Under the pieces are notes generated by a model that saw only the letters and a program-made list of their open reading frames with translations, had not been told where the DNA came from and did not search any database. The position numbers and the translations under genes were made by a program. This document shows, piece by piece, positions 34,901 through 40,330 of a stretch of 64,000 nucleotides of DNA (position 1 is its first letter; every line of letters begins with the position of its first letter). This DNA comes from the human T2T-CHM13v2.0 reference genome, Homo sapiens: NCBI RefSeq assembly GCF_009914755.1, contig NC_060932.1; one strand, 5' to 3'.

Positions 34901-35599
34901 GATGCACACGCTTACAACAACTCAAACAACATTGCAGACGGGCTTGTAATATAAACAGAGTTGTCAGAAGTTTCCATCTCTCCCCAGCCCCAGTGCCACA
35001 GGTCAGAATCAATTCCTTTTTTCTTCCCCCTACTGGGCATTACCTACATTAATAATTCTGCTTGTCTAGTGGTTAATTAATTAATGTACCTGCATGGCTA
35101 ATTTTAGGCTTATGAGTTTTAGACATTTACTTTCTGCTACGACAGCTAAGAATTTCCTGCCCGCTCTTCCTCGGAATATAGTTACATCCTTATTTCCACT
35201 TCTGTTAATTGTCTTTTAAAGTCCAGGACTACATACCCTTTTCTAGTTCCATCGCGAAGGCGGGAAGTCTCGATTCCTCACTGGGAAAGGTGAGGACATG
35301 GATGCCTCCACCCTTCCCTGAAGCACTCCTCTCCTCTTCTGCGGAGGTGGATTTTTAAAAACAGATTGGGGTTGGGGTGGGGGAGGGACAGCACGCAGAA
35401 TATTGATGCAAACGTCATATGAAAAAAAATACATATAATATATATGTATGTATACCTGCAAAGTGCTGTTACATATACGTGTGTATATTAACAGCATTAT
35501 GAATCCCAGACAATTGGGGCCGCTTACCGCCGTGGCTGTGACTTTAAATTCACTCACTTCTTACATCCACTAGGAAAAGAGGATTTGTTTCCCTAAAGC

Positions 35600-36850
35600 C
35601 TATAAAAGGGGAAAGGCTTAGGCGCAGTGGCAGCCCCGTTCCCCGCACCCTCCTGCCCTCGGGTCCCGGGCGGGCTGCGGGAGTTCCTCCTGCGCGGGCG
35701 TCTGAGGCGCTAGAGGTCACCGGAGCGCGCTCCCCTCGCCAGGGACCTACACTCTTCCCGCTGCTACATTAGGCCGCATTAACAAGGATCTGGATTCACT
35801 TTAATTTAAAAGGTAAAAGATCTTAGGTCTGATGGGGGAGTGCGGCGAGGAGAGCTCGGACCGCGACGTCGCGCGCCCGCTTCGAGGAGTTTTGAGCTCT
35901 TAGCTTGGTGCCGGGGCCCGCCCGGCGCTAGATGAAGTGCTCGTTTACTCGGCCTAAGCCACGGTGACTCGAAGGTGAGAATGCAACTTCGCGGTGCACC
36001 GGCTCAGGGGCCTGCCTGCCGCGCCAAGGCTTCGGAAGTTCTCAGCGGGACCGCTGGGACAGGCTTTCCTCTGAGGGAAGAGGAGGGGATTTGTGCCTCT
36101 GCACGTTCTTTCCTGTGGAGGGGAAAATCAAACCCTGTAGCCGTCCGCTGCCGGGTAGGGATCGGGCGATGCTCGGCGCCCGAGTTCTCCGCCGTTGAGG
36201 TGGAGCCCGGCGGCGGGAGCTTAGATTCTCTGTGGGCCACATGGTCTCAGAAGAGGCCCCGCGGCCCGGGGGCGCCCGCAGTGTCGCTGGACCGGCGGCA
36301 GCGCTGGCCACGCCGTGGGCTGGGACTGGCCCGGAACGCGGGTGGCGGTTCGGCCTCGGAGACCCGCGCAGCCGTCGGAGCATCTCCGTGCCTCGCTCAC
36401 CACCTTCTTTTCCTCCGCGTCCGGCGGAGGGTTTCGGCGCGCGGGGCAGGCCTGGAGCGCCGTGAGCAGGCCGGATGCGGGATACGCCAGTGACTACCAG
36501 AGCCAGACCCGGAGCGCGCTGCCGGCGGTGACGGCTAGGCTGGGCCCCTGTCCTTGGGCCGAGTTGCCGAGCTCCCTCGGGGACTTGAAGGTGAAGGGCG
36601 AGGCGCCGGCCGGGGCCGCGGGCCGAGCCAAGGGCGAGTCTCGCATCCGGCGCCTTCCAGGTGGGGCGAAGGTCGAGCGCCAGAGGCTGGCGAGGGACCC
36701 CCGCCCAGCTTGACGCCCAGCTGCGCCCGACGCCGGGGGAGGCGGAGCGCGGGGAACCCGGGCGCCGGGAACCCCGGACGTGGGAGGGCTGGGCTTCTGC
36801 GCGGGGAGACGCCGGGCTTGGCGAACATCCTCAAGAACCGGTCGGTGGCT
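35600..36850. promoter_or_regulatory. CpG island overlapping the SOX17 pseudogene 5' end; TATA-like box at 35601
   Basis: Dense CpG and high GC; CCTATAAAAG at the 5' edge. Confidence 0.7.
36234..36740 (+). pseudogene. SOX17 tandem pseudogene, promoter/5'UTR/exon-1 paralogue
   Basis: Aligns to ~27144-27703; reads [67 protein letters not shown] changed to GTG at 36462, 18-nt deletion, HMG box disrupted, stop at 36711-36713, donor GT changed to GG. Confidence 0.95.
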
Positions 36851-37389
36851 CTACCTCCGAAAACTCTTTCGTGTTTAGCGATTCTCATATTTAGTGTTTC
36901 CCTTTAGGGAGACTTGACCGGCAATTGCAGACTCGTCTTGGGAGCTGGAGATGACATTAAATAAAAAGTTCAAAACCAAATTGTTAATTATCTCCAGGTA
37001 TAAACGATAACACAAAATTTTGCAGTCTTGGGAGAAAGGTTTTAATGTGCCGCCTAATTAGGCCAGGTTCTGCAAAAACGAAACAGCTCTATTCCAAGTT
37101 AAAAAGTATGCCCCTATTCCAAGTTAAAAGAAAAAAAAGTTGTATTCCTTGTTCATTTATTGAGTAAGGAATTGAGAGATGGGTGCTGAGTTATTACAGA
37201 TTCTAACTGCTCGCCACACATGGAGCTAGAAATACATTTAACAGCCTTTCAGGAAAACGCCTAAAGCTTTAGAATTTCAAGCTAGCCAGGTTGCAATCTA
37301 GAGCTCTAGTTTGTTGCTGAAGTTTGGGAGAGGATGGCCTCTACCTGTGCACACATCGAGTTAATTTTCCAGAGTCTTTTGAAGTTAAT

Positions 37390-37564
37390 AGGGAGCGGCT
37401 TTTCTGTTTGTTTATTTTTTGACAGGGTATCCTTCTGTCGCCCAAGCTGGAGTGCAGTGGTGCATCGCAGCTCACTGCAACCTGGACCTCCTGGGCCCAA
37501 GCGATCCTCCTGCCTCTGTCTCCCAAAGTGCTGGGATTATAGGCATGTGCCACCGCGCCTGGCC
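37390..37564 (-). mobile_element. Alu monomer/AluJ fragment
   Basis: Reverse Alu ending CCACCGCGCCTGGCC. Confidence 0.85.
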
Positions 37565-37606
37565 TGTTTTTTGCTTTTAAGAGAAGGAATAACATGGCCA
37601 GAGTTT

Positions 37607-37904
37607 GTTTGTTTATTTTTTGAGATGACGTCTAGCTCTGTCGCCCAGGCTGGAGTGCAGTGGCGCGATCTCGGCTCATTGCAACCTCTGCCTCCCGGGT
37701 TCAAGCGATTCTCCTGTCCCAGCCTCCCAAGCAGCTGGGATTACTGGCGCGTGCCACCACTCCTGGCTAATTGTCTTATTTTTTAGTAGAGACGTGGTTT
37801 CGCTATGTTGGCCAGTCTGGTCTTGAACTCCTGACTTCAAGTGATCCACCCGCCTTGGCCTCCCAAAGTGTTGGAATTACAGGCGTTACCCACCGCGCCC
37901 CGCC
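37607..37904 (-). mobile_element. AluS element flanked by a 42-bp direct duplication
   Basis: Reverse full Alu; flanks 37565-37606 and 37905-37946 match at 40/42. Confidence 0.9.
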
Positions 37905-38102: not shown

Positions 38103-38544
38103 TTTTCTCTTTTCTTTTCTTTCTTTCCTTTATTTCTTTTCTTTTTCTTTCTTTCTTTCTTTCTTTTTCTTTCTTTCTTTTTTCTCTTTCTTTCTCTCTC
38201 TTTCTTTCTTTCTTTCTCTTTCTTTCTTTCTTTCCTCTCTTTCTCGCTTTCTTTTTTTCTTTTTTTGAGATGGAGTCTGGCTCTGTCACCACGCTGGAGT
38301 GCAGTGGTGCGATCTCCGCTCACTGCAACCTCCGTCTCCTGGGTTCAAGCAGTTCTACCTCAGCCTCCCGAGTAGCTCGGATTACAGGCGTCCGCCACCA
38401 GGCCCAGCTATTTTTTGCATTTTTAGTAGAGACGGGATTTCACTACGTTGGCCACGATGGTCTGGAACTCCTGACCTCAGGCGATCTGCCCAACTCGGCC
38501 TCCCAAAATTCTGGGATTACAGGCGTGAGCCACCGCGCCCAGCC
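38103..38544 (-). mobile_element. AluS element with a ~160-bp (TTTC)n polypyrimidine tail
   Basis: Reverse Alu at 38267-38544; CT-rich tract at 38103-38266; ACACATTTTCT TSD-like flanks. Confidence 0.9.
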
Positions 38545-39339
38545 GCACACATTTTCTATTTACAGTCATACAGAGGAGTTTCTCCCCCCAAGCCCCCATT
38601 GGGATCGCATTTTCCTACTATTCTGAAACTTGCTTTTTCAGTTTAGAGTACACATTTGGCGGTCTTGTATTCCTAGAAGATGGACTTCGATTTACCGGTT
38701 GATGGTCTTCTCCACTCTTCCGTGGGGTCAGCCCCACTTGTCCCGTCTCCAGTCCAATGTCAGTTTGTGACTTAATCTTTTACATCGTGTACAGTCTGAG
38801 CCCTCAGACCCCCTCACACATGCACAAATTGAGTTTATGCACAGAACAGATAGTACCTGTACTTAAATGTAGACTCACTGGGGAGCACGTTTCACTCCAT
38901 AAGAAAAGGGGTAAAAATTGTGCACACCATAATTGCAATATTTTACAAGACCGGTGCTTTCTTTATCTCAGGGGTGCTGGCAGAGAGAGGTGCATAGAAA
39001 ACTCTGGGTGGGTTATTTCCTCCTGGAGCATTGCCCCTCCGTTGCCTGCTTACCTGGGCAAGTGCTGGTCTGCGTGGATGGCTTATTGGCACTTCCGGGA
39101 CCCTCATGTCGTAAGGCTGAGACCTAAGAAGCTGATTCTGTCCAGGAGGTGAGATCTGCCCCGATAATCGTAGGCTGATGGGGTCGCTGCTCTGGCGTCA
39201 TAGTTAATGTTAACTTCCACTCACACTGTGTTCGTCTGGGTGATAAAAGTGTGTGGGGCGCCTCTTTGCAGGCTTCCTGTCCTCTTGGGAGATGTCTGCG
39301 CTTTGTGAGTTTGGGAAACAACTGGGTACCCAGCGAGGT

Positions 39340-39900
39340 GGGCGCAGGAGGAGGAGCTGCCTTCCTCCGGGAGGCGGCGCAGCGCGGGGATCTTGCGGGA
39401 CCAGGCCAGAGACCAGGACCGTCCCCCAACCGTTCGCGGCCGCGTAGCCCTGGGCGGCCTGGGCCTGCCCTTCCCTGCGCAGGGCTTTCCCTCCTGCCGG
39501 TCGCTGCCCCGCACATGGCTCTGGTCGTACTCCCGCTCCACCGCCACCACTGCCCACGCCCTGCGTCCCCGTTTGACCGCGTGGAGCCGGACCCCGCCTT
39601 CCTCGCCCCGCGCTGCCCCAGGCCTGCCCCGCACCAGCAGCTAAGCGCAGGTCTCTACTGCAAGCCCGCAGCCCCCTCATCGCTGGGCCTACTGGCGACC
39701 CCCGGCGCCATGCGCGTGAACTGTGGGCGATGGGCTCGCCCTTGGCGGGCGGCGCGCGCGGTTTCCAGATGCAGCCGCCGCGCCGGGGCAGCTGACGCCG
39801 CCTCCAAAGACGCGCCCTGCTGGACGGCGCTGACCCCACGCAGCCAGCGGAGTCTCCTGGGAACAGCCCAGGCGCCGGTGCCGACTTCAACCTCTCTGCT
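39340..39900 (+). pseudogene. SOX17 tandem pseudogene, exon-2 paralogue (frameshifted, deleted, CpG-rich)
   Basis: GRVALGGLGLPFPAQGFP vs SOX17 [31 protein letters not shown] vs [25 protein letters not shown] vs [27 protein letters not shown]...TTCCAGATGCAGCCG shared at nucleotide level. Confidence 0.92.
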
Positions 39901-40293
39901 CAGGCCTCTGAGTTGCGTTACCAGCTTACCATGTATTACTAAGACTGACAGAATATAGGAAATATTCCTGTCTTTCTCAGAAGGAACTTTCCAGTAAAGA
40001 CAGCGTTTAATACTGTTAACGTCTCAAAGGAGGCAGTGAAAAATGTGCTCAGCTTAAGCATATGCAAAGTCAGTCTATTTCCATTTTCTACTTATGCACA
40101 TTATATTTTGCATTAAAGTTTGATCATTTTAAAAGTGGAAAATTAATGGGCAGTGGCAGAAACAGCTTTTTTCCCCCAAAAGTAATCTTCTTCCAACTAG
40201 TTTTAAACATTTTACTAACAATTATTGAGTATCTTCTACATTTTAAGTCATTATTTTAAAGTTCTTGGTTATTGACATGTTGTAAATTTGAAA

Positions 40294-40330
40294 AATAAAG
40301 TTTTTCTTAAAAAATTGTGTGTGTATGTAG
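40294..40330 (+). terminator. Candidate polyA signal downstream of the pseudogene
   Basis: AATAAA at 40294-40299 followed by a GU-rich TTGTGTGTGTATGT element. Confidence 0.35.

What the first reader, a model, noticed from the sequence alone, without database searches (positions are those of the whole stretch)
35599..40330. Unprocessed tandem SOX17 duplicate with a complete candidate transcription unit
Seen: promoter-proximal, 5'UTR, exon-1 and exon-2 paralogues lie in the same order and strand ~9 kb downstream of SOX17, separated by a ~2.6-kb Alu-expanded spacer (612 bp in SOX17). This indicates DNA-level duplication, not retrotransposition. There is a canonical CCTATAAAAG (35599), a strong donor AAG|GTGAGA (35975), an acceptor-like CTCTTTGCAG (39262-39271) and AATAAA plus a GU-rich element (40294-40330). 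Inference: a transcribed pseudogene or lncRNA, or a shadow promoter competing with SOX17 for shared enhancers. I recall an early cloning report mentioning a clustered psi-SOX17, so its existence may be known; I know of no functional characterisation.
Basis: partly seen in the sequence, partly recalled or inferred. Interest (0 to 1): 0.85.

Follow-up and report, generated by a model that had tools for sequence, protein, structure and literature searches.

The report
Ancient dead tandem copy of SOX17
About 9 kb downstream of human SOX17 lies an old, broken, intron-containing copy of the gene whose two exon remnants are still CpG islands; it is real, but the proposed plus-strand transcription unit is unproven and the annotated opposite-strand protein gene looks like an artefact.

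Summary
The paralogy is real. SOX17 from -50 through exon 1 matches 36228-36769, with 448 of 538 ungapped columns identical. Exon 2 up to about codon 355 matches about 39240-39861. Order and strand are the same, and the spacer sits at the exon junction. No similarity is detectable upstream of -50, in the intron, in the 3'UTR or in the flanks.

The copy is dead. ATG has become GTG, about 16 coding frameshifts are present, the HMG box is ruined and SOX17's own donor is lost.

It is old. A colugo "SOX-17-like" gene model carries the copy's own flanking sequences, and uneven divergence suggests gene conversion.

Both exon relics remain CpG islands (o/e 0.94 and 0.80). Alus in and around the locus also keep unusually many CpGs. 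This points to a germline-hypomethylated valley around SOX17.

Nothing available here shows plus-strand transcription. RefSeq's minus-strand "IF-2-like" protein gene has no domain, no conservation beyond gorilla and no codon periodicity.

A suggestive lead: the copy's C-terminal tail resembles the derived tail of marsupial SOX17-like proteins (p about 0.0003-0.02). It could be the eutherian relic of a therian paralogue.

The parts
36228..36277 (+). Copy of the SOX17 core promoter (-50 to -1); the CCAAT-like element is mutated
   Evidence: 40/50 identical to 27139-27188; local score 30 vs shuffle max 17, 0 of 500 shuffles reach it. Homology stops abruptly upstream.
36278..36461 (+). Copy of the SOX17 5'UTR
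   Evidence: 149/183 ungapped columns identical; 0 of 500 shuffles reach the score.
36462..36737 (+). Copy of the exon-1 coding part. ATG is GTG at 36462. There is an 18-nt in-frame deletion and 11-, 1- and 2-nt frameshifting deletions. The SOX17 donor GT is lost.
   Evidence: tblastn aa 1-88, 68%, E 7e-27. The pre-HMG part is 168/185 identical and the HMG part 66/90.
36738..39240 (.). Intron-equivalent spacer (about 2.5 kb) with no detectable similarity to the 612-bp SOX17 intron
   Evidence: z -0.8 and 0.7 against shuffles. The first 32 nt after the lost donor are not significant on their own (160 of 200 shuffles).
37408..37925 (-). One partial and one full Alu element (37408-37587, 37599-37925)
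   Evidence: blastn to other Alus of the window; sub-threshold Metazoa_SRP hits at 37419-37563 and 37620-37903. The full one keeps 12 of 21 consensus CpGs.
38104..38548 (-). Full Alu (38248-38548) with an expanded (TTTC)n tail array (38104-38266)
   Evidence: keeps 11 of 21 consensus CpGs.
39241..39435 (+). Badly degraded remnant of the second half of the HMG box
   Evidence: 28333-28420 vs 39343-39424, score 22 vs shuffle max 20, 0 of 200 shuffles. The same degraded stretch is present in the colugo model P0059.
39436..39861 (+). Copy of the central part of exon 2 (SOX17 codons about 171-355) with 13 frameshifting and 2 in-frame indels
   Evidence: K2P 0.23.
39862..39957 (+). C-terminal tail. 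It is not similar to the SOX17 tail. In one frame it resembles the derived tail of marsupial SOX17-like proteins.
   Evidence: SOX17 tail not significant. Marsupial-like tail: 1 of 3167 and 12 of 3167 random windows reach the score, 3 of 3000 residue shuffles; profile HMM 3.8 bits, 32 of 1389 windows.
35501..36950 (.). CpG island 1 (GC 0.66, o/e 0.94). Its 5' half (35501-36227) is unique DNA, not SOX17-derived.
   Evidence: 35500-36230 has only itself as a match in the whole T2T genome.
39201..39950 (.). CpG island 2 (GC 0.67, o/e 0.80) over the exon-2 copy
35599..35980 (+). A possible but unproven first exon.
39262..39271 (+). Acceptor-like motif about 30 nt inside the exon-2 copy; not the paralogue of SOX17's acceptor
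   Evidence: low-confidence alignment; such motifs occur about 0.96 per kb per strand.
40294..40330 (+). AATAAA plus TG-rich run. There is no homology to the SOX17 3'UTR.
   Evidence: AATAAA occurs 1.13 per kb per strand.
34848..36888 (-). RefSeq predicted model LOC124906691 ('IF-2-like'), antisense to the exon-1 copy. The ORF is probably an artefact; a non-coding transcript is possible.
   Evidence: No Pfam family. Only a human and a partial gorilla prediction among 8000 scored candidates. 108/114 identical to gorilla. GC by codon position 0.75/0.71/0.71. A minus-strand AATAAA at 34871-34866 lies about 20 nt before the model's 3' end.

Best explanation
This is an old, unprocessed (DNA-level) tandem duplicate of the SOX17 transcription unit. 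It spans from about -50 to the end of the coding region and is now a dead pseudogene.

What is shown:
- The start codon is lost, about 16 frameshifting indels lie in coding sequence, the HMG box is destroyed and the native donor is lost. The acceptor also appears lost, on a low-confidence alignment.
- 25 of 28 indels are deletions in the copy.
- It predates the primate-colugo split.
- Its body carries eutherian-type SOX17 residues.
- Its divergence from SOX17 is patchy: 91% identity in the pre-HMG coding part against 73% in the HMG part.

What is inferred:
- The patchiness fits episodic gene conversion from SOX17.
- The locus has sat in a germline-unmethylated domain, a DNA methylation valley of the Polycomb-target type shared with SOX17. 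That is why both exon relics, the 730 bp of unique DNA upstream of the copy, and even the Alus inserted into the spacer have kept their CpGs.
- The two islands most likely act passively as extra CpG-island mass inside the SOX17 valley. Any RNA made from them is non-coding.
- The minus-strand 'IF-2-like' ORF is a by-product of 75% G+C DNA.
For: Paralogy and layout.

Not a retrocopy: 50 bp of promoter are copied (0 of 500 shuffles). The break lies at the exon junction, and the DNA after the exon-1 copy is not exon-2-like.

Lesions.

Only two copies in the genome, SOX17 and this one.

Age:
- Colugo model P0059 residues 1-88 and 262-306 hit only the copy (E 4.9e-12 and 1.1e-9) and not SOX17.
- K2P is 0.19 and 0.23.
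- The copy has the non-primate state at 2 of the 4 scorable primate-specific sites.

Eutherian-type body:
- 8 of 12 scorable polarised sites carry the eutherian-derived state.
- The copy falls in the clade of eutherian SOX17 with support 100/100.

Patchy divergence: 17/185 vs 24/90 mismatches, Fisher p 2.5e-4.

No CpG decay:
- Of 63 SOX17 CpGs in the exon-1 block, 43 are kept and only 3 became TG/CA in the copy.
- CpG o/e is 0.94, 0.92 and 0.80, against 0.23 in the processed pseudogene TRMT112P7 in the same window.
- Alus between 22.8 and 43.2 kb keep 50/100 consensus CpGs against 66/292 elsewhere; Mann-Whitney p 0.0034, with no relation to the age proxy.

Valleys at developmental TF genes: PMC5806489 (title and start of abstract in the listing) and a passage of PMC6126923.

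Antisense ORF.
Against: No expression, methylation or chromatin data could be consulted. The valley is therefore inferred only from CpG retention, and transcription is open on both strands.

One Alu far outside the proposed valley (6597-6890) also keeps 12/20 CpGs. The inside/outside boundary (22.8-43.2 kb) was chosen after seeing the CpG islands.

Gene conversion is inferred from heterogeneity in one pairwise alignment with no outgroup DNA. Regional rate variation could mimic it.

The TATA-plus-donor pair at the island edge is rarer than chance would suggest and might mark a real exon, which a purely passive reading does not predict.

RefSeq does predict a polyadenylated minus-strand RNA with a fitting AATAAA.

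The colugo evidence rests on one predicted protein, whose SOX17-like centre could be a model or assembly chimera.
Confidence: 0.72

Rival explanations
1. The locus is an active plus-strand transcription unit: TATA 35599, exon to 35975, splice to 39272, poly(A) after 40294. Alternatively it is a shadow promoter whose RNA or promoter activity modulates SOX17.
For: All four motifs exist. TATAAAAG and a strong donor are each rare in the window (8 and 10 sites per 128 kb of strand), and they sit 375 nt apart at the 5' edge of a CpG island. The copied core promoter around 36278 is one of the best-kept stretches, at 93% in the 40-nt window at 27159.
Against: The TATA box and donor are not SOX17-derived. 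The acceptor-like and AATAAA motifs are expected by chance at about 1 per kb. The proposed splice would skip the whole exon-1 copy. RefSeq annotates no plus-strand RNA here. No paper in the library mentions such a transcript.
Confidence: 0.2
2. It is a processed (retrotransposed) SOX17 copy that landed next to its parent and was later split by insertions.
For: Similarity is confined to exonic sequence. Intron, 3'UTR and flanks show none.
Against: 50 bp upstream of the annotated TSS are copied. The split coincides with the exon junction within about 30 nt. The DNA following the exon-1 copy does not continue into exon 2. The Alus and the (TTTC)n array explain only about 950 bp of the 2.5-kb spacer. 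The copy has the same strand and lies 9 kb from the parent.
Confidence: 0.03
3. RefSeq's model is right: LOC124906691 on the minus strand encodes a real 262-aa protein.
For: An uninterrupted ORF with a GT-AG 58-nt intron and a fitting AATAAA near the 3' end (finding's table).
Against: No Pfam family. Among 8000 scored candidates only the human entry and a 150-aa gorilla entry under a different name matched. 6 of 114 residues differ from gorilla, which is about neutral (the neutral expectation is my inference). R+P+G+A+S make up 66% of residues and GC is flat across codon positions. The ORF is simply the antisense of a decayed SOX17 exon in 75% G+C DNA, where stop codons are rare.
Confidence: 0.03
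4. The duplicate is older than eutherians. It is the relic of the second, tandem SOX17 gene that marsupials still keep intact ('SOX17-like'), and its eutherian-looking body reflects concerted evolution before it died.
For: See the section on the most novel reading: tail similarity; the same homology boundary near codon 352-355 as between the marsupial paralogues; lack of any non-exonic similarity.
Against: The profile-HMM version of the tail test is weak (32 of 1389 windows reach the score). The body groups with eutherian SOX17 at 100/100. No marsupial DNA or synteny could be examined. Tandem SOX17 duplications have arisen independently in other vertebrates (sox32, PMC12648240 passages), so two independent events are plausible.
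Confidence: 0.35

Closest known systems
Unprocessed (duplicated) pseudogenes kept next to their parent and exchanging sequence with it, such as HBBP1 in the beta-globin cluster, CYP21A1P and GBAP1 (named from recall, not from a call)
   Same: Tandem position. Intron position kept. Disabling mutations present. Signs of gene conversion with the parent.
   Different: Here similarity survives only in exons and 50 bp of promoter. Both exon relics are still full CpG islands. No function or disease-related conversion is known.
Marsupial SOX17 / SOX17-like pair (P0042 vs P0048 and relatives)
   Same: A second SOX17 gene on the same chromosome-sized contig. The body is homogenised with SOX17: 332/348 identical within opossum, against 303/347 between opossum and wallaby orthologues. 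The tail is distinct from about codon 352. The human copy loses similarity to SOX17 at the same point, and its tail scores better against the marsupial-like tail.
   Different: The marsupial gene is intact, whereas the human copy is dead. Orthology is not shown, and adjacency and orientation in marsupials could not be checked.
Tandem sox17 duplicates of other vertebrates: sox32/sox17 in ray-finned fish (PMC12648240, passages); sox17a/sox17b in Xenopus (recalled)
   Same: Small-scale tandem duplication of sox17.
   Different: Those paralogues are functional and sub- or neo-functionalised. The human one is a pseudogene.
Orphan CpG islands and DNA methylation valleys at developmental transcription-factor genes (PMC5806489 listing; PMC6126923 passage; the orphan-island/poised-enhancer work is recalled only)
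   Same: CpG-rich, apparently germline-unmethylated DNA without a coding gene, a few kb from a Polycomb-type developmental gene.
   Different: These islands descend from the exons of a dead paralogue. Methylation and chromatin state were not measured here.

Membership tests
Unprocessed (duplicated) pseudogene of SOX17 | Similarity to the parent's exons in the same order and orientation | tested here: met
   E 1.5e-113 and 3.8e-26.
Unprocessed (duplicated) pseudogene of SOX17 | Intron position retained (exon blocks separated at the exon junction, not contiguous) | tested here: met
   The exon-1 block ends at the donor position and the exon-2 block starts within about 30 nt of the acceptor position. 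The DNA after the exon-1 copy is not exon-2-like (13 of 200 shuffles). The intron sequence itself is no longer recognisable.
Unprocessed (duplicated) pseudogene of SOX17 | Similarity extends into non-transcribed DNA | tested here: met
   50 bp upstream of the RefSeq TSS, 0 of 500 shuffles. The reach is only 50 bp, and a dispersed TSS could weaken the argument.
Unprocessed (duplicated) pseudogene of SOX17 | Disabling lesions | tested here: met
   ATG to GTG; 3 + 13 frameshifting indels in coding sequence; two in-frame stops in the guided reading; donor lost.
Processed pseudogene | Intronless, with exon 1 joined directly to exon 2 | tested here: not met
Functional SoxF gene | Intact HMG box and open reading frame | tested here: not met
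   HMG part 66/90 identical with three frameshifts. The second half is barely detectable. Pfam finds nothing in the longest plus-strand ORFs.
CpG island (length >= 200, G+C >= 0.5, o/e >= 0.6; criteria recalled) | Composition criteria | tested here: met
   35501-36950: 0.66 and 0.94. 39201-39950: 0.67 and 0.80.
DNA methylation valley | Multi-kb unmethylated region in bisulfite data | not testable with these tools
   Only a proxy is available: CpG retention in the islands and in Alus (50/100 vs 66/292).
Transcribed pseudogene / lncRNA | Evidence of an RNA | not testable with these tools
   Only a predicted RefSeq model exists, on the minus strand (finding's table). There are no expression data.
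Protein-coding gene 'translation initiation factor IF-2-like' (LOC124906691) | Recognisable IF-2 or other domain; conservation; coding periodicity | tested here: not met
Orthologue of marsupial SOX17-like | Shares the derived C-terminal tail | tested here: inconclusive
   Pairwise: 1 of 3167 and 12 of 3167 windows, 3 of 3000 shuffles. Profile HMM: 32 of 1389 windows.
Orthologue of marsupial SOX17-like | Same position and orientation downstream of SOX17 in marsupials | not testable with these tools

The most novel reading that the evidence does not exclude
The therian ancestor had two tandem SOX17 genes that evolved in concert over codons 1 to about 352 and differed in their C-terminal tails. 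Marsupials keep both. Eutherians silenced the downstream one more than about 80-100 million years ago. Its exon relics were still converted by SOX17 for a time, and they have survived as CpG islands because they lie inside the unmethylated, Polycomb-type valley of SOX17, where they may now serve as island mass or a tether for SOX17 regulation.
Probability: 0.3. Interest if true: 0.65.

Novelty: new member of a known kind. Interest (0 to 1): 0.42.

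Why it matters
1. Annotation. The locus is listed in RefSeq (T2T) not as a SOX17 pseudogene but as an opposite-strand 'IF-2-like' protein gene. That model is probably spurious.

2. Practice. The copy shares exact runs of 35, 25, 24 and 21 nt with SOX17 exon 1, and it is a CpG island. SOX17 methylation assays, guide RNAs, probes and short-read mapping can therefore cross-react.

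3. Evolution. If the marsupial link holds, eutherians lost a SoxF gene that marsupials still use. That would give a dated example of concerted evolution followed by loss next to a key endoderm, germline and endothelial regulator.

4. Regulation. Two orphan islands 9-12 kb from SOX17, inside what looks like its unmethylated valley, are obvious deletion targets.

Tried and rejected
- A bacterial sigma-70/terminator scan was run on this human DNA by mistake. It is irrelevant and was not used.
- Searches for 'SOX17 pseudogene', LOC124906691, SOX17-like/SOX17L/SOX17B/SOX17P, hg19/hg38 coordinate strings, and SOX17 + marsupial + gene duplication found nothing on a human SOX17 pseudogene or a marsupial second SOX17. 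Supplements were not searched. Katoh 2002 is not held.
- A search with the colugo model's first 88 residues found only the model itself, 1 protein among 99 candidates. No further species could be added.
- A collinear mapping of the SOX17 tail onto 39862-40075 was considered, with the 'VYYC' codons placed at about 40005-40020. It was not significant under three scoring schemes: 406, 64 and 223 of 500 shuffles reach the score.
- The apparent 32 nt of intron similarity after the lost donor is not significant on its own. It was dropped as evidence.
- Sub-threshold mir-3135 and mir-1268 hits in the spacer lie inside the Alus and were not taken as genes.
- The first tree run was cut off (quick tree). 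The finished careful tree is. No AU test was run.
- The guided translation used includes a few tail residues from a non-significant alignment, among them site 375. Those sites should be discounted.

Full report
**What is there**

A blastn dot-plot of 22000-32000 against 32001-44000 gave 14 rows. Three are SOX17-to-copy matches, all plus/plus:
- 27146-27731 vs 36235-36769: 75.4% over 590 columns, E 1.5e-113.
- 28516-28950 vs 39436-39778: 63.7%, E 3.8e-26.
- 28998-29071 vs 39789-39861: 76%, E 4.6e-6.

The other 11 rows are Alu-type repeats.

A local alignment puts the 5' block at 27139-27731 vs 36228-36769, with 448 of 538 ungapped columns identical. The SOX17 protein matches 36462-36695 over residues 1-88 (68%, E 7e-27). 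In the whole T2T genome these blocks have only two places, SOX17 and this copy. The 730 bp upstream of the copy are unique.

**Limits of the duplicate**

The 50 bp upstream of the RefSeq TSS are copied: 40/50 identical, score 30 against a shuffle maximum of 17, 0 of 500 shuffles. Beyond that, nothing is similar in any of these regions:
- Upstream: z 0.5 and 1.4.
- Intron against either half of the spacer: z -0.8 and 0.7.
- 3'UTR: z 0.4.
- Downstream flank: z -1.5 (all).

The second half of the HMG box is just detectable (28333-28420 vs 39343-39424, 0 of 200 shuffles). Similarity to SOX17 ends at 29071, about codon 355. The remaining tail is not significant under three scoring schemes or in a frameshift-tolerant protein-to-DNA alignment (17 of 60 shuffles).

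**Processed or unprocessed**

The DNA right after the exon-1 copy does not continue into exon 2 (13 of 200 shuffles reach the score). The two blocks are split at the exon junction, and 50 bp of promoter are included.

The 32 nt of 'intron' similarity after the donor are not significant alone (160 of 200 shuffles), so I do not count them.

The spacer is about 2.5 kb. It holds one partial and two full Alus on the minus strand, seen as sub-threshold SRP-RNA hits, and a (TTTC)n array. Together these make up about 950 bp. Alus being primate-specific is recalled knowledge.

**It is dead**

- ATG is GTG at 36462.
- The exon-1 coding part has an 18-nt in-frame deletion and 11-, 1- and 2-nt frameshifting deletions.
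- The donor GT is gone.
- The exon-2 block has 13 frameshifting and 2 in-frame indels.
- 25 of all 28 indels are deletions in the copy.
- A codon-by-codon guided reading gives 176 identities among 282 readable codons of 415, with two in-frame stops.
- Pfam finds nothing in the long plus-strand ORFs.

**Age and history**

A search with the exon-2 protein returned 966 hits, of which 120 were listed. One is a 306-aa 'SOX-17-like' model of the colugo (P0059). Its three parts behave differently:
- Residues 1-88 hit only the human copy: 39087-39425, 41 of 115 identical, E 4.9e-12.
- Residues 262-306 also hit only the copy: 39854-39982, 24 of 43 identical, E 1.1e-9.
- Residues 89-261 are SOX17-type: 151 of 179 identical to SOX17 exon 2.

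So an orthologous copy, already without a working HMG box, existed before primates and colugos split. The colugo centre looks recently converted by SOX17, or the model is chimeric.

Further points on age:
- At 17 sites where eutherian SOX17 differs from both marsupial and sauropsid SOX17, the human copy is readable at 12. It has the eutherian state at 8, the ancestral state at 2 and neither at 2.
- At 6 primate-specific sites it is readable at 4: one primate state, two non-primate, one neither.
- In a finished maximum-likelihood tree of 51 rows, the copy (end branch 0.85) and the colugo centre lie inside the eutherian SOX17 clade with support 100/100.
- K2P distances are 0.19 and 0.23. With most change on the dead branch and recalled neutral rates of about 1-2.2e-9 per site per year, this suggests roughly 90-200 million years. 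This date is my inference.

Divergence is uneven:
- Pre-HMG coding part: 168/185 identical.
- HMG part: 66/90 identical (Fisher p 2.5e-4).
- 5'UTR: 149/183 identical.

A functional paralogue would show the opposite pattern. A conversion tract over about 27379-27600 is the simplest reading.

**CpG islands and the valley**

Two islands cover the relics:
- 35501-36950: G+C 0.66, o/e 0.94.
- 39201-39950: G+C 0.67, o/e 0.80.

Of 63 SOX17 CpGs in the exon-1 block, 43 are kept, 3 became TG/CA, 8 changed otherwise and 9 fall in gaps. The unique 5' half of island 1 has o/e 0.92, so conversion from SOX17 cannot explain it. A processed pseudogene in the same window (TRMT112P7) has o/e 0.23.

I aligned the 20 near-full-length Alus of the window and inferred 21 consensus CpG sites.
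- The five Alus between 22.8 and 43.2 kb keep 50 of 100 sites. The 15 others keep 66 of 292 (Mann-Whitney p 0.0034).
- Retention is unrelated to non-CpG divergence (rho 0.04).
- The two spacer Alus rank 3rd and 4th of 20.

Two caveats apply. The boundary was chosen after seeing the islands, and one outside Alu (6597-6890) also keeps 12 of 20.

This pattern fits the large unmethylated valleys described at developmental transcription-factor genes (PMC5806489, title and abstract start in the listing; PMC6126923, passage). No methylation data could be consulted.

**The proposed transcription unit**

All four motifs exist. Their frequencies in the window are as follows:
- TATAAAAG: 8 sites in 128 kb of strand.
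- Strong donors: 10 sites in 128 kb of strand.
- Acceptor-like motifs: 0.96 per kb per strand.
- AATAAA: 1.13 per kb per strand.

The TATA-donor pair is therefore somewhat unusual, though that judgement is post hoc. The rest of the chain is expected by chance.

The TATA box and donor lie outside the duplicated DNA, and the proposed splice would skip the exon-1 copy. A more natural paralogous start would be the copied core promoter near 36278. A plus-strand AATAAA lies at 36960. This alternative is speculation.

**The minus strand**

RefSeq predicts LOC124906691 (34848-36888) as a protein gene.
- Its ORF has no Pfam family.
- Only a human entry and a 150-aa gorilla entry under another name matched among 8000 scored candidates.
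- It is 108/114 identical to gorilla.
- It is 66% R/P/G/A/S and has flat G+C over codon positions.

I read it as an artefact of antisense G+C-rich DNA. An AATAAA about 20 nt before the model's 3' end leaves a non-coding RNA possible.

**The marsupial lead**

Eight of the 120 listed proteins, all marsupial, share a derived C-terminal tail. Of the rest, 103 have the SOX17-type tail and 9 have other tails.

Within opossum, SOX17 and SOX17-like are 332/348 identical up to codon 352 but only 32/58 identical in the tail. Opossum and wallaby SOX17-like are 303/347 and 54/58 identical over the same two parts. That is concerted evolution, with a boundary where the human copy also stops resembling SOX17.

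One frame of 39865-39957 aligns with the marsupial-like tail, including its last three residues, where all SOX17-type tails differ. The tests gave:
- Pairwise scores 43 and 40 against a mean of 22.8. These are reached by 1 and 12 of 3167 random windows and by 3 of 3000 residue shuffles each.
- A frameshift-tolerant alignment: reached by 0-1 of 60 shuffles for each of the five marsupial-like tails tested.
- A profile HMM of the eight tails: only 3.8 bits, reached by 32 of 1389 windows.

This is suggestive and no more. Marsupial DNA and synteny could not be examined.

**Literature**

No paper in the library mentions a human SOX17 pseudogene, this LOC, or a second marsupial SOX17. This rests on the searches, and on passages of PMC12648240 and PMC9421400. 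Supplements were not searched.

**Verdict**

This is a real, ancient, unprocessed SOX17 pseudogene that is mis-annotated in RefSeq and kept CpG-rich by its surroundings. The transcription-unit and shadow-promoter ideas remain untested.

Noticed in passing
proteins P0042, P0048-P0052, P0055, P0047, P0027: Marsupials carry two SOX17 genes. The bodies are homogenised within a species (95.4% in opossum) while the C-terminal tails differ (55%) yet are conserved between species (93%). I found no paper on this.
   Followed up: partly
window 34848-36888 (-): RefSeq 'translation initiation factor IF-2-like' protein-coding model is the antisense of a decayed SOX17 exon. Its only relative is a gorilla entry named 'myosin IC heavy chain'. 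It is probably a spurious ORF.
   Followed up: yes
window 6597-6890: An Alu far upstream of SOX17 keeps 12 of 20 consensus CpGs. That is as many as those near SOX17, so there may be another unmethylated patch, or it may be a young Alu.
   Followed up: no
window 22801-24300: A third CpG island (G+C 0.64, o/e 0.81) lies 3-4 kb upstream of SOX17, at the start of lncRNA LOC105375841. The Alu between it and SOX17 (24576-24877) keeps 13 of 21 CpGs.
   Followed up: no
protein P0038 (Plecturocebus cupreus): A second, 312-aa SOX17-like prediction lies on a different contig from the titi monkey's SOX17. It is 76% identical and lacks the N-terminus, so it may be a lineage-specific retrocopy.
   Followed up: no
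proteins P0075/P0079 and P0080/P0082 (tree): Two bird species each have two nearly identical SOX17 predictions on one contig. These are either recent tandem duplicates or concerted evolution.
   Followed up: no
window 27555-27589 vs 36606-36640: A 35-nt run is identical between SOX17 exon 1 and the copy, with further runs of 25, 24 and 21 nt. This is a cross-reaction risk for guides, primers and short reads.
   Followed up: yes
window 38104-38266: A (TTTC)n microsatellite of about 39 units lies at the tail of a minus-strand Alu inside the spacer.
   Followed up: no
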